Source: Escherichia coli
Lineage (GTDB): Bacteria; Pseudomonadota; Gammaproteobacteria; Enterobacterales; Enterobacteriaceae
DNA: 64,000 nt
NCBI RefSeq assembly: GCF_011045215.1
Contig: NZ_CP049201.1
Direction: 5' to 3' (one strand)
This document shows positions 1 through 3,000 of this stretch, piece after piece. Position numbers: made by a program. Each line of letters starts with the position of its first letter. Positions within the stretch are counted from its first letter, which is position 1.

Positions 1-3000
1 ATGAACGCCATGGTAGAGTTAGCTAAGAACAGAGTACCGCTTTATCACATTATGGATGTTGCAAAACAAATGGAGAATAATTAATAACACGCCCTCTTAG
101 CTCCAGTCTTAGCCTCCGTCTTATGACCTTAACAAAGCACCCGACATAAATTCCTGTCGGGTGTGTCGTCATCATCATCTTCCCTTGCGAAAATCCTGGC
201 ATACGTGGTATGCGTCAGGGCATTAGCAATACCCTTGATTATCAATAGCATAACCATAACCACTGAAAATTAAAAATTTCTATATATTTCATATTGTTAA
301 ATGATACTTAAATAAATTTCATCAGTAAATCATTGCCATAGATAATCATTGGATGGCACAATCAATTTTCGCTAATGATAACCATTCCCATTACGTTTTG
401 TATGTTGATAGCAAAGTATCTCTGTCTGCTGAAGCCCTTTTGGCTGCGTAAGAATAATAAAACTTCAGTGTTGTTAATCATTATTATCCTCGCCATGATC
501 CTTGGCGTGGTTAAAATTCAGGTCTGGTTAAACGACTGGAATAATGATTTTTTCAATGCGCTAAGCCAGAAAGAAACCGATAAGCTTTGGCAGCTTGTCC
601 TTTGGTTCCCTGCCCTGCTGGGGATCTTTGTATTAATATCCGTAAACAAAACATGGTTAATTAAACTGCTGACTATTCGCTGGCGCGAATGGTTAACAGA
701 TTACTACCTTAATCGGTGGTTTGCAGATAAAAACTACTACTTCACGCAGATCTACGGCGAGCATAAAAATACAGATAACCCTGACCAACGTATCGCTGAA
801 GACATTCTCTTACTGATCAGCAAAACGCTCAGTCTTTCATTTGGCTTCATCCAGTCACTTAGCATGCTGATCACCTTCACCGTTATTCTTTGGCAAAGCG
901 CGGGTACGCTCTCATTCACTGTTGGTGGAACAGAATGGAATATCCAGGGGTATATGGTCTATACCGTCGTGCTCATTGTGATCGGTGGAACTTTATTTAC
1001 CCATAAGGTGGGTAAACGTATTCGTCCGCTTAATGTGGAAAAACAACGTAGCGAAGCGACATTTCGAACAAATCTTGTGCAGCATAATAAGCAGGCTGAA
1101 CTGATTGCGCTAAGCAATGCTGAGTCTCTACAACGCCAGGAGTTGAGCGACAATTTTCATACCATTAAAGTGAACTAGCATCGTTTAATGAATCGTCAGC
1201 GGTGGCTTGATTACTGGCAGAATATTTATTCGCGTTCGCTTAGCGTTCTTCCGTACTTTCTGTTATTGCCGCAGTTTATTAGCGGGCAGATCAATCTGGG
1301 CGGACTGATGAAATCGCGCCAGGCATTTATGCTGGTATCGAACAATTTAAGCTGGTTTATTTATAAATATGACGAACTTGCTGAACTGGCTGCGGTTATC
1401 GATCGCTTGTATGAGTTCCATCAACTCACTGAACAGCGCCCTACGAATAAGCCTAAAAATTGCCAACATGCGGTACAAGTGGCTGACGCGAGTATTCGTA
1501 CTCCTGATAATAAGATCATATTAGAGAACCTGAACTTTCATGTTTCGCCAGGCAAATGGCTATTACTGAAAGGTTACTCTGGTGCGGGAAAAACCACACT
1601 GCTTAAAACATTATCCCACTGCTGGCCGTGGTTTAAAGGTGATATTTCTTCTCCTGCCGACAGTTGGTATGTGTCACAAACACCGTTAATCAAAACCGGC
1701 TTACTGAAAGAGATTATTTGTAAAGCACTTCCTCTGCCCGTAGACGATAAATCGTTGAGCGAAATACTGCATCAGGTTGGTCTGGGGAAATTGGCTGCGC
1801 GTATTCATGACCACGATCGCTGGGGAGATATTCTTTCCAGCGGCGAAAAACAACGTATCGCCCTGGCACGATTAATTTTACGACGTCCGAAATGGATATT
1901 TCTTGACGAAACTACCTCTCATCTTGAGGAACAAGAGGCTATCCGCTTACTGCGTTTAGTGCGTGAAAAACTACCCACAAGCGGCGTCATTATGGTTACA
2001 CATCAACCCGGTGTCTGGAACCTGGCCGATGATATTTGTGACATTAGCGCGGTTTTATAAAAACAATAAAAGCCCTGCTGTACGGAGATATAAATAAATG
2101 AAGCGAGTTCTTATTCCTGGCGTCATTTTATGTGGCGCTGATGTGGCGCAGGCCGTCGATGACAAAAACATGTACATGCATTTTTTTGAAGAGATGACGG
2201 TCTATGCTCCTGTCCCTGTACCCGTAAACGGCAACACGCATTACACCAGTGAAAGCATCGAGCGTTTACCGACCGGGAATGGCAATATCAGCGATCTGCT
2301 GAGAACCAACCCTGCGGTACGCATGGATTCAACGCAAAGTACCTCGTTGAACCAGGGAGATATTCGCCCGGAGAAAATCTCTATTCACGGTGCGTCGCCC
2401 TACCAGAATGCCTATTTGATTGATGGTATAAGTGCCACTAATAACCTGAACCCAGCGAATGAGTCCGATGCCAGTAGTGCAACCAATATTAGCGGAATGT
2501 CACAGGGGTATTATCTTGATGTCAGCTTACTGGACAATGTGACGCTTTATGACAGTTTTGTGCCGGTTGAATTCGGTCGCTTCAATGGCGGGGTAATTGA
2601 TGCAAAGATCAAACGCTTCAACGCTGATGATAGCAGCGTGAAACTGGGTTACCGCACTACGCGTTCGGACTGGTTAACATCGCATATCGATGAGAATAAC
2701 AAGAGCGCATTTAATCAAGGTTCTTCAGGAAGTACTTATTACTCTCCAGATTTTAAAAAGAACTTTTATACCTTGTCGTTTAATCAGGAACTCGCTGATA
2801 ACTTTGGCGTTACCGCCGGTTTATCGCGCCGCCAGTCTGATATCACCCGCGCGGATTATGTTTCGAATGACGGCATTGTCGCCGGTCGGGCACAGTATAA
2901 AAACGTTATCGATACTGCATTGAGCAAATTTACCTGGTTTGCCAGCGACCGCTTTACCCACGATTTAACCTTAAAATATACCGGCTCCAGCCGTGATTAT

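What the first reader, a model, noticed from the sequence alone, without database searches (positions are those of the whole stretch)
1176..1178. In-frame amber codon splits the ABC transporter gene yddA
The two ORFs covering yddA share one frame and are separated only by TAG (1176-1178) plus three sense codons. The summed length equals the recalled 561-aa K-12 protein, so this looks like a single-base nonsense change. It would separate the membrane domain from the ATPase domain; the second half has its own ATG at 1188.
Basis: partly seen in the sequence, partly recalled or inferred. Interest (0 to 1): 0.5.

Follow-up and report, generated by a model that had tools for sequence, protein, structure and literature searches.

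The report
Private amber stop inactivates yddA
One G-to-A change turns tryptophan 268 of the E. coli ABC-transporter gene yddA into a stop codon, giving an ordinary strain-specific pseudogene in a gene that many other E. coli strains have broken in other ways.

Summary
ORFs 375-1178 and 1188-2060 share one frame, are split by TAG at 1176-1178, and together equal the 561-codon yddA with no indels. The cause is one transition, TGG (Trp268) to TAG, at window 1177.

The allele is private. None of 5,426 complete E. coli genomes and no metagenome contig carries it. One Logan assembly (SRR11014969) matches the window exactly over 5 kb, so the stop is also in a contig Logan built from that run's reads.

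The domain claim is wrong. In a confident model (pLDDT 94.8), residue 268 lies mid-way along a continuous helix (250-302, TM5). The N-fragment keeps only TM1-4; TM5, TM6 and the ATPase go to the second ORF. ATG 1188 is simply Met272 and has no Shine-Dalgarno sequence.

yddA is the only one of 36 projected genes with a new stop. Its Fur box, yddB and pqqL are intact.

The kind of event is common. A TGA at the same codon occurs in 22 complete genomes, annotated "internal stop". At least 39 other yddA nonsense alleles exist, against 9 in the neighbour ydeN.

Verdict: an ordinary, recent loss-of-function allele of low interest. The apparent excess of independent yddA knock-outs is a minor side lead.

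The parts
375..2060 (+). yddA pseudogene: 561 codons, a type IV ABC transporter with fused transmembrane and ATPase domains, interrupted at codon 268
   Evidence: 98.9% nt identity to K-12 b1496 with no indels, and the same neighbours (ydeM/yneP upstream, yddB-pqqL downstream). Pfam ABC_membrane_2, SbmA_BacA and ABC_tran. Best PDB match Rv1819c: E=1.3e-66 by sequence, TM-score 0.84 by fold.
1176..1178 (+). Premature amber codon TAG replacing Trp268 (TGG); the mutated base is G->A at 1177
   Evidence: Position 268 is aromatic in 68 of 81 family members and follows the nearly invariant Asn267.
1171..1171 (+). Companion missense change A->T (GAG->GTG, Glu266Val), 6 nt upstream of the nonsense base
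   Evidence: Like the TAG, it is absent from all 5,426 complete genomes: the 61-mer across both sites has 2 mismatches at best. Position 266 varies freely in the family, so the change is probably neutral.
375..1178 (+). First ORF: 267-aa N-terminal fragment (elbow helix, TM1-TM4, coupling helix 2 and the first 18 residues of the TM5 helix)
   Evidence: This exact product is on record on only one other contig, Logan SRR11014969_2.
1188..2060 (+). Second ORF: 290 aa from the internal Met272 codon (rest of TM5, TM6, ATPase domain); no ribosome-binding site
   Evidence: The same 290-aa ORF is called as a separate gene wherever yddA is broken upstream; the index lists it in 54 blocks.
372..389 (.). 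Fur box overlapping the yddA start codon, intact (CTAATGATAACCATTCCC, the reverse complement of the published GGGAATGGTTATCATTAG)
   Evidence: Exact match at 372. The sequence and the Fur regulation come from PMC3855560.
2098..4470 (+). yddB: TonB-dependent outer-membrane receptor, next gene of the operon, intact (790 aa)
   Evidence: Co-transcription of yddA-yddB-pqqL is reported in PMC3855560.
4515..7310 (+). pqqL: M16 metalloprotease, last gene of the operon, intact
   Evidence: The ORF is 931 aa. The copy projected from PapM-32-1 (4527-7310) is 99.8% identical with no stop.

Best explanation
This is a real, recent, lineage-private nonsense mutation that has made yddA a pseudogene.

Shown: one G->A transition at window 1177 changed the conserved Trp268 codon TGG to the amber codon TAG. 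The ancestral state is TGG. The stop lies in the middle of the TM5 helix of a six-helix type IV ABC transporter. No ribosome-binding site precedes the next ATG. The promoter-proximal Fur box and the downstream genes yddB and pqqL are intact. No other gene tested in the window is broken.

Inferred: translation ends at codon 268 and releases a 267-residue fragment with only TM1-TM4. That fragment cannot form the six-helix transmembrane domain or couple to an ATPase. The inner-membrane step of the Fur-regulated YddA/YddB/PqqL system is therefore lost. At most, a little of the C-terminal part might be made by termination-reinitiation at AUG 1188, 9 nt downstream. The untranslated 880 nt could also lower yddB-pqqL expression through Rho-dependent polarity.

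The event is one of very many independent yddA knock-outs segregating in E. coli, which fits a gene under weak purifying selection.
For: Single-base change and no indels against three intact references.

Derived state: 4,411 complete genomes match the surrounding 61-mer, none with fewer than 2 mismatches. A 31-mer centred on TAG, which cannot seed on wild-type sequence, finds no genome. The metagenome scan finds none. Position 268 is aromatic in 68 of 81 homologues.

Real rather than an error: the Logan contig from SRR11014969 is identical over 5,060 bp.

Disruptive position: Pfam domain limits, hydropathy, the AlphaFold model with helix 250-302, and the Rv1819c fold match.

No independent translation signal: -1.5 kcal/mol against -6 to -10 for genes with a clear Shine-Dalgarno sequence.

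Local event, not genome decay: 35 other projected genes have no new stop.

Recent: relative to a five-haplotype panel the gene has 5 synonymous, 1 missense and 1 nonsense private changes, so there is no excess of replacements.

Ordinary kind: RefSeq annotates yddA as a pseudogene with 'internal stop' in every carrier examined. At least 40 distinct nonsense alleles exist in complete genomes. IS1, IS2 and ISVsa5 insertions and a 1-bp deletion also occur. yddA pseudogenisation is reported in Shigella sonnei.
Against: No reads, RNA or protein data were available, so loss of function is inferred from position only. It is unknown whether SRR11014969 is independent of the data behind the window's assembly. 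AUG 1188 lies only 9 nt past the stop, close enough for termination-reinitiation, and split membrane proteins sometimes reassemble, so residual activity is not excluded. Suppressor tRNAs elsewhere in the genome could not be checked; none lie in the window. The native substrate of YddA is unknown, so the phenotypic cost cannot be stated.
Confidence: 0.9

Rival explanations
1. Adaptive loss: the stop was selected, not merely tolerated. YddA would be an entry route for a harmful compound, such as a lasso peptide, microcin or other antimicrobial peptide taken up through YddB or another TonB-dependent receptor, and strains gain by closing it.
For: SbmA-family importers are classic resistance loci. 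Deleting the B. cepacia yddA homologue makes cells resistant to the lasso peptide ubonodin. yddA shows at least 40 distinct nonsense alleles in at least 82 complete genomes, against 9 alleles in 48 genomes for the same-sized neighbour ydeN, with similar target sizes of 239 and 211 nonsense SNVs. Three Trp codons (268, 327, 395) were each hit by both TAG and TGA.
Against: Of the 39 other decoded alleles none was seen in more than 8 of the 60 listed rows, and W268-TGA reaches only 22 of 5,426 genomes; three further lesions taken from draft and Logan assemblies have no carrier at all among the complete genomes. That is the pattern of mutation-selection balance under weak constraint rather than sweeps. 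There is only one control gene, and the yddA count is a lower bound from a query with a junction artefact. The larger number of transition routes to a stop in yddA (73 vs 47) explains part of the excess. No toxin using E. coli YddA is known. yddA is reported as a colonisation or fitness factor in some hosts.
Confidence: 0.1
2. Functional split gene: ribosomes terminating at UAG 1176-1178 restart at AUG 1188, and the two polypeptides reassemble into a working transporter. This would be a step towards the separate TMD and NBD genes seen in some YddA-family members and proposed as the origin of SbmA.
For: The restart codon is 9 nt downstream and in frame. Naturally split TMD/NBD yddA genes are reported in other species. 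Restart after nonsense codons is established in E. coli (own knowledge: lacI and T4 rIIB restarts; the Adhin and van Duin scanning model).
Against: The break is inside the TM5 helix, not in the TMD-NBD linker (about residues 354-366), and removes residues 268-271 next to the near-invariant Asn267. There is no Shine-Dalgarno sequence. The allele is private rather than conserved. Each of the 80 homologues aligned is a single chain of 542-600 aa.
Confidence: 0.04
3. Sequencing or assembly error: the true genome has TGG.
For: Reads were not available. The change is a single base.
Against: An assembly made directly from SRA reads (Logan, SRR11014969) has the same TAG and the same neighbouring E266V, with 0 mismatches over 5,060 bp. 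Substitution errors at consensus level are rare, and no homopolymer is involved.
Confidence: 0.03
4. Programmed or suppressed read-through: the UAG is decoded by a suppressor tRNA or a recoding signal, so full-length YddA is still made.
For: UAG followed by C is a comparatively weak termination context in E. coli (own knowledge, not tested here).
Against: The stop is not conserved in any relative. E. coli has no pyrrolysine system (established knowledge). No tRNA gene lies in the window. The one genuinely recoded stop in the window, the fdnG selenocysteine UGA, is conserved in the reference, unlike this one.
Confidence: 0.02

Closest known systems
yddA pseudogenes with 'internal stop' in RefSeq E. 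coli genomes, in particular Trp268->TGA (opal) in 22 complete genomes such as ECCTRSRTH03, BR1220 and SCPM-O-B-9504
   Same: Same gene and same codon. Same consequence: a 267-aa N-fragment and a 290-aa downstream ORF. The operon is otherwise intact in most carriers.
   Different: A different base is changed (third-position G->A giving TGA, versus second-position G->A giving TAG). The haplotypes differ by 19-20 nt from the window. The window's amber allele is in none of the 5,426 genomes.
yddA pseudogenisation in Shigella sonnei lineage CenAsiaIII (PMC6811581)
   Same: Loss of the same transporter gene, fixed in a lineage and interpreted as reductive evolution.
   Different: That event is one of many pseudogenes in a decaying genome. 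Here yddA is the only broken gene among 36 tested, and no IS-sized interruption was noticed across the 64 kb.
Naturally split YddA-family transporters (TMD and NBD on separate genes, e.g. N. meningitidis NCTC8554 and Serratia rubidaea NCTC10036) and the TMD-only derivative SbmA (PMC13316013)
   Same: A YddA-type gene appears as two consecutive ORFs in the same operon.
   Different: In those cases the split is described as lying between the TMD and the NBD. Here it cuts TM5, leaving TM1-4 on one ORF and TM5-6 plus the NBD on the other, with no ribosome-binding site and no conservation.
Rv1819c of M. tuberculosis (PDB 6TQE/6TQF), an ABC importer of hydrophilic compounds
   Same: Closest solved homologue by sequence (E=1.3e-66, residues 36-552 aligned) and by fold (TM-score 0.84). 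Trp268 aligns with Tyr324.
   Different: Only 26% identity over the structural alignment. Rv1819c is intact and functional. The E. coli YddA substrate is unknown.
Loss-of-function alleles of sbmA (E. coli) and yddA (B. cepacia) that confer resistance to microcins and lasso peptides
   Same: Inactivation of an SbmA/YddA-family inner-membrane importer.
   Different: No toxin is known to enter through E. coli YddA, and no resistance phenotype was or could be tested here.

Membership tests
E. coli yddA (b1496) orthologue | High nucleotide identity over the full length, with conserved gene neighbourhood ydeM-yneP / yddA / yddB-pqqL | tested here: met
   98.9% to K-12 and 99.3% to the best hit over 1.8 kb. 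The annotated neighbours are identical.
E. coli yddA (b1496) orthologue | Uninterrupted 561-codon reading frame | tested here: not met
   TAG at codon 268.
Type IV ABC transporter of the YddA / SbmA-BacA-like family | N-terminal ABC_membrane_2 / SbmA_BacA transmembrane domain fused to a C-terminal ABC_tran ATPase domain | tested here: met
Type IV ABC transporter of the YddA / SbmA-BacA-like family | Six-helix transmembrane fold with long cytoplasmic helix extensions, similar to Rv1819c | tested here: met
   AlphaFold model pLDDT 94.8. Foldseek top hit 6TQE, TM-score 0.84, followed by ABCD1, ABCD3 and ABCD4.
Pseudogene by nonsense mutation | In-frame stop at a position where orthologues carry a sense codon, and the stop is the derived state | tested here: met
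   TGG in K-12, RM9088 and PapM-32-1. No complete genome carries the TAG. The residue is aromatic in 68 of 81 homologues.
Pseudogene by nonsense mutation | The truncated product lacks parts essential for function | tested here: met
   The N-fragment ends inside TM5 and lacks TM5-6 and the whole ATPase domain. That these parts are essential is established knowledge for ABC transporters.
Pseudogene by nonsense mutation | Loss of protein or function demonstrated | not testable with these tools
   This needs a western blot, a transport assay or a phenotype test.
Naturally split two-gene YddA (separate TMD and NBD genes) | Break located in the linker between TM6 and the ATPase domain | tested here: not met
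   The break is at residue 268 inside helix 250-302. The linker lies at about 354-366.
Naturally split two-gene YddA (separate TMD and NBD genes) | Downstream gene has its own translation-initiation signal | tested here: not met
   Anti-Shine-Dalgarno pairing is -1.5 kcal/mol, rank 14 of 24 ATGs in the gene.
Naturally split two-gene YddA (separate TMD and NBD genes) | Split architecture conserved across a lineage | tested here: not met
   The allele occurs in the window and one identical Logan contig only: 0 of 5,426 complete genomes and 0 metagenome contigs.
Programmed stop-codon recoding | Stop codon conserved in orthologues, with a dedicated decoding system | tested here: not met
   The stop is not conserved. 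By contrast, the fdnG UGA at codon 196 is present in both the window and the reference. Absence of Pyl machinery in E. coli is established knowledge and was not tested on this genome.

The most novel reading that the evidence does not exclude
yddA may be an unusually frequent target of independent inactivation across E. coli. Evidence: at least 40 distinct nonsense alleles in complete genomes, which is at least four times the count in the same-sized neighbour ydeN; three Trp codons each hit by both TAG and TGA; and additional IS insertions and frameshifts. Under this reading, losing the ATP-driven inner-membrane importer is positively selected in some niches, for example by closing an entry route for a peptide toxin as with SbmA and microcins or B. 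cepacia YddA and ubonodin, while the outer-membrane receptor YddB and the protease PqqL are kept. The window's amber allele would be one instance.
Probability: 0.1. Interest if true: 0.45.

Novelty: new member of a known kind. Interest (0 to 1): 0.1.

Why it matters
For this strain, the finding means that the inner-membrane component of the Fur-regulated YddA/YddB/PqqL system is very probably missing. That system contributes to fitness of uropathogenic E. coli during systemic infection (PMC3855560). The gene should be annotated as a pseudogene, not as two genes.

More broadly it matters little, because single-strain nonsense alleles are routine. Two points have wider use. First, two-ORF yddA annotations should not be read as evidence for natural TMD/NBD splitting without checking where the break falls. 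Second, yddA seems to collect independent knock-outs more often than its neighbour. If a genome-wide burden test confirmed that, it would be a cheap clue to the still unknown substrate or cost of this transporter.

Tried and rejected
1. Recombination patch. Five of seven changes that looked private cluster in 1097-1253, suggesting import from a divergent donor. Rejected: 55 complete genomes carry the 1235T/1253G pair exactly, so it is a minority E. coli haplotype. A scan of GTDB species representatives found nothing.

2. Templated double mutation. E266V and W268* lie 6 nt apart, and the chance of a second independent change within +/-6 nt is about 0.7%. No direct or inverted copy of any k-mer of 9 nt or more spanning both sites exists in the window. 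A single complex mutational event remains possible but unsupported.

3. E266V as evidence of post-inactivation decay. Rejected, because position 266 varies freely in the family.

4. L009 (ENA metagenome scaffold) first looked like a 10-bp insertion allele. It is a run of 10 Ns, a scaffold gap.

5. My first reading (no TGA carriers) was wrong. The 98.4% hits were TGA carriers differing only at T263A. The 31-mer test showed 22 carriers.

6. Codon 268 as a special hotspot. Rejected: Trp327 and Trp395 also carry both TAG and TGA alleles.

7. The first concatenated nonsense-31-mer query had a junction (query 5643-5704) that rebuilt wild-type sequence and matched about 3,600 genomes. Only multi-piece rows were used, so the yddA counts are lower bounds. 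The control query was reordered and checked to be free of such junctions.

8. The metagenome scan for the TAG allele gave 0 hits. No tRNA genes lie in the window.

9. The promoter/terminator scan of 1-2300 gave counts no higher than shuffled sequence and says nothing about an internal promoter for yddB.

Full report
**1. The observation**

The sequence shows ...AAA GTG AAC TAG CAT CGT TTA ATG AAT..., with TAG at 1176-1178. ORF 375..1178 (267 aa) and ORF 1188..2060 (290 aa) are in the same frame. Translating 375-2060 in one frame gives a 561-codon product with a single internal stop. The region matches yddA in 4,633 of 5,426 complete E. coli genomes. The neighbours are the usual ones: ydeM and yneP upstream, yddB and pqqL downstream.

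Ungapped comparison with K-12 MG1655 b1496 gives 19 substitutions and no indels. Codon 268 is TGG (Trp) in K-12, RM9088 and PapM-32-1 and TAG in the window, through G->A at position 1177. The observation and the "single-base nonsense change" reading are therefore confirmed.

**2. How widespread is the allele?**

- A 61-mer centred on the stop has no match better than 2 mismatches in any of the 4,411 genomes that contain the region. The second mismatch is a neighbouring A->T at 1171 (Glu266Val).
- A 31-mer centred on TAG with the ancestral Glu266 cannot seed a megablast hit on wild-type sequence. It finds nothing.
- A scan of the JGI metagenome contigs, tolerant at the two nearby variable sites, finds nothing.
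- The exact 267-aa product is on record on only one contig, Logan SRR11014969_2. That contig is identical to the window over 5,060 bp.

So the TAG is also present in a contig that Logan assembled from that run's reads. Whether that run is independent of the window's source is unknown.

The nearest complete genome is only 99.2% identical over 22 kb. The lineage is therefore poorly sampled and the allele is private to it.

**3. Where the stop falls in the protein**

Pfam places the transmembrane domain at 28-301 (ABC_membrane_2) or 32-350 (SbmA_BacA), and the ATPase from 383. Hydropathy shows four strong membrane segments before residue 268 and further hydrophobic segments at about 288-335 after it.

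I collected family representatives, aligned 81 sequences and obtained a confident AlphaFold model with pLDDT 94.8 and pTM 0.89. Its best structural match is Rv1819c, 6TQE, with TM-score 0.84. Rv1819c is also the best sequence match among solved structures, at E=1.3e-66.

| Helix (residues) | Element |
|---|---|
| 29-64 | TM1 |
| 68-131 | TM2 with its cytoplasmic extension |
| 136-176 | TM3 |
| 193-239 | TM4 with its cytoplasmic extension |
| 241-246 | short coupling helix |
| 250-302 | TM5 with its cytoplasmic extension, continuous |
| 308-353 | TM6 |
| about 360 onward | ATPase domain |

Residue 268 sits in the middle of helix 250-302. It follows Asn267, which is conserved in 80 of 81 sequences, and position 268 itself is aromatic in 68 of 81. 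The stop therefore does not separate the membrane domain from the ATPase. It leaves TM1-4 on the first ORF and TM5, TM6 and the ATPase on the second.

**4. Can the second half be expressed?**

ATG 1188 is the ordinary Met272 codon. The 20 nt upstream pair with the anti-Shine-Dalgarno sequence at only -1.5 kcal/mol. Genes with a clear site, such as yddB, gadC and narY, score -6.6 to -10.3, and ATG 1188 ranks 14th of the 24 ATGs in the gene.

Restart after termination 9 nt upstream is possible in principle (established knowledge). It would be inefficient, and the product would lack residues 268-271 and four of the six membrane helices. I consider a functional split very unlikely (0.04).

**5. 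Context**

- The published Fur box overlapping the start codon is intact at 372-389.
- yddB (790 aa) and pqqL are intact.
- Projecting 36 genes annotated in PapM-32-1 onto the window shows that yddA is the only one with a new stop. The other in-frame stop is the fdnG selenocysteine UGA, which the reference also has.
- Against a five-haplotype panel, the window's yddA has 5 synonymous, 1 missense and 1 nonsense private changes. At least two of the synonymous ones belong to a minority haplotype shared by 55 genomes.

There is no sign of prolonged neutral decay, so the inactivation looks recent.

**6. How ordinary is this?**

The 290-aa downstream ORF is called as a separate gene in 54 index blocks, behind a variety of upstream lesions:

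- IS1 insertions
- a 1-bp deletion at nt 750
- a deletion
- Gln240->TAG
- Trp268->TGA

The opal allele at the same codon is present in 22 complete genomes on a K-12-like haplotype. It also appears on an RM9088-like haplotype in a Logan assembly. Both are 19-20 nt away from the window's haplotype. RefSeq annotates these as pseudogenes with "internal stop".

To test whether codon 268 is special, I queried 299 concatenated 31-mers (238 on the K-12 haplotype, 61 more where RM9088 differs) covering every possible nonsense SNV of yddA except W268-TGA. One junction of that query rebuilt wild-type sequence. I identified it and discounted it.

The 60 listed rows, all with an extra piece that must span a mutated centre, decode to about 39 distinct nonsense alleles, 15 of them at 13 Trp codons. 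Six were checked by translation and all were correct: E67*, R231*, Q255*, W395-TAG, W395-TGA, and W417-TGA in laboratory strain TG1. Trp327 and Trp395 each carry both TAG and TGA, so the recurrence at codon 268 is generic.

A clean control on the same-sized neighbour ydeN found 48 carriers and 9 alleles. The target sizes are 239 and 211 nonsense SNVs, of which 73 and 47 are transitions. yddA thus seems to collect independent nonsense alleles at least four times as often as ydeN. This rests on one control gene and on a lower bound for yddA.

**7. Literature**

- yddA-yddB-pqqL is one Fur-regulated transcript, induced more than 30-fold in urine. yddB and pqqL are fitness genes in systemic UPEC infection (PMC3855560).
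- YddA is a type IV ABC transporter of unknown function. [quoted passage not shown]
- The B. cepacia homologue is the inner-membrane entry route of the lasso peptide ubonodin (bioRxiv 10.1101/2022.03.09.483586).
- yddA pseudogenisation is a lineage marker in Shigella sonnei (PMC6811581).

**8. Verdict**

This is a real, private, recent amber mutation that inactivates yddA (confidence 0.9). It is a new allele of a very common kind, so interest is low (0.1).

The only lead with some wider value is the apparent excess of independent yddA knock-outs. That could reflect weak constraint (most likely) or selection to close an import route (about 0.1). A genome-wide burden test would settle it.

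Noticed in passing
window 1171: A second change absent from all 5,426 complete genomes, Glu266Val (GAG->GTG), lies 6 nt from the nonsense base. Two private changes that close suggest one complex mutational event, but no template was found. Position 266 is variable in the family, so the change is probably neutral.
   Followed up: partly
L015-L017 (codon 268 of yddA at locus 1515-1517); L008:2989-2991: Trp268->TGA (opal) is present in 22 complete E. coli genomes on a K-12-like haplotype, and on a different RM9088-like haplotype in Logan ERR10441185. With the window's TAG, the same codon has been knocked out apparently three separate times.
   Followed up: yes
yddA across complete E. 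coli genomes: At least 40 distinct nonsense alleles of yddA occur in at least 82 of 5,426 complete genomes, against 9 alleles in 48 genomes for the equal-sized neighbour ydeN. yddA may be under unusually weak constraint, or selected for loss.
   Followed up: partly
L023 (E. coli TG1, yddA at 573-2258): The common laboratory K-12 derivative TG1 carries Trp417->TGA in yddA, one base away from MG1655. Work on YddA in TG1 would be done in a natural knock-out.
   Followed up: partly
L015:2437-3031 and L019:2419-3116: In ECCTRSRTH03 (yddA W268-TGA) yddB is additionally truncated next to an IS1. In LR-24 (yddA W395-TAG) an IS1 sits between yddA and yddB. In some strains the whole operon is decaying step by step.
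   Followed up: no
window 31550-31552 (- strand), within fdnG 29090-32137: The in-frame TGA at codon 196 of fdnG splits the ORF list into 195-aa and 803-aa pieces. It is the known selenocysteine codon and is present in the reference too, so it is not a defect.
   Followed up: partly
window 14806-14817 (dosP): There is a 12-nt in-frame insertion (ATGAAATGGGGG, 4 codons) in dosP relative to PapM-32-1. The window's ORF from ATG 13968 is 807 aa.
   Followed up: partly
window 34773-37353, indel at about 35476: This is a cluster of three leucine-rich-repeat protein genes (the yddK/yddL region of K-12). A 1-nt difference at about 35476 separates the window, which has a 222-aa ORF at 35369-36037, from PapM-32-1, where the middle gene is annotated as frameshifted.
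   Followed up: partly
window 48400-64000: This is a variable region: only 31 of 5,426 genomes cover 80% or more of it in one place. The best hits list type VI secretion tip genes (tssI/vgrG, PAAR-like), ansP, yncE, pqqU and mcbR, and an IS600 in the top hit.
   Followed up: no
window 18786-19808 (ddpB) and 47887-48456 (yddH): These genes are only 96.9% and 96.1% identical to PapM-32-1, while neighbouring genes are 99-100% identical. That is the usual recombination mosaic, which also explains why no complete genome matches the window closely.
   Followed up: no
PMC13316013: The published examples of yddA split into separate TMD and NBD genes come from single genome annotations. Given how often E. 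coli yddA is split by simple lesions, they should be checked for where the break falls before being used as evidence for the origin of SbmA.
   Followed up: no
window 355-389: The start of yddA itself has almost no Shine-Dalgarno pairing (-1.5 kcal/mol) and is overlapped by the Fur box, so translation initiation of the intact gene may be intrinsically weak.
   Followed up: no
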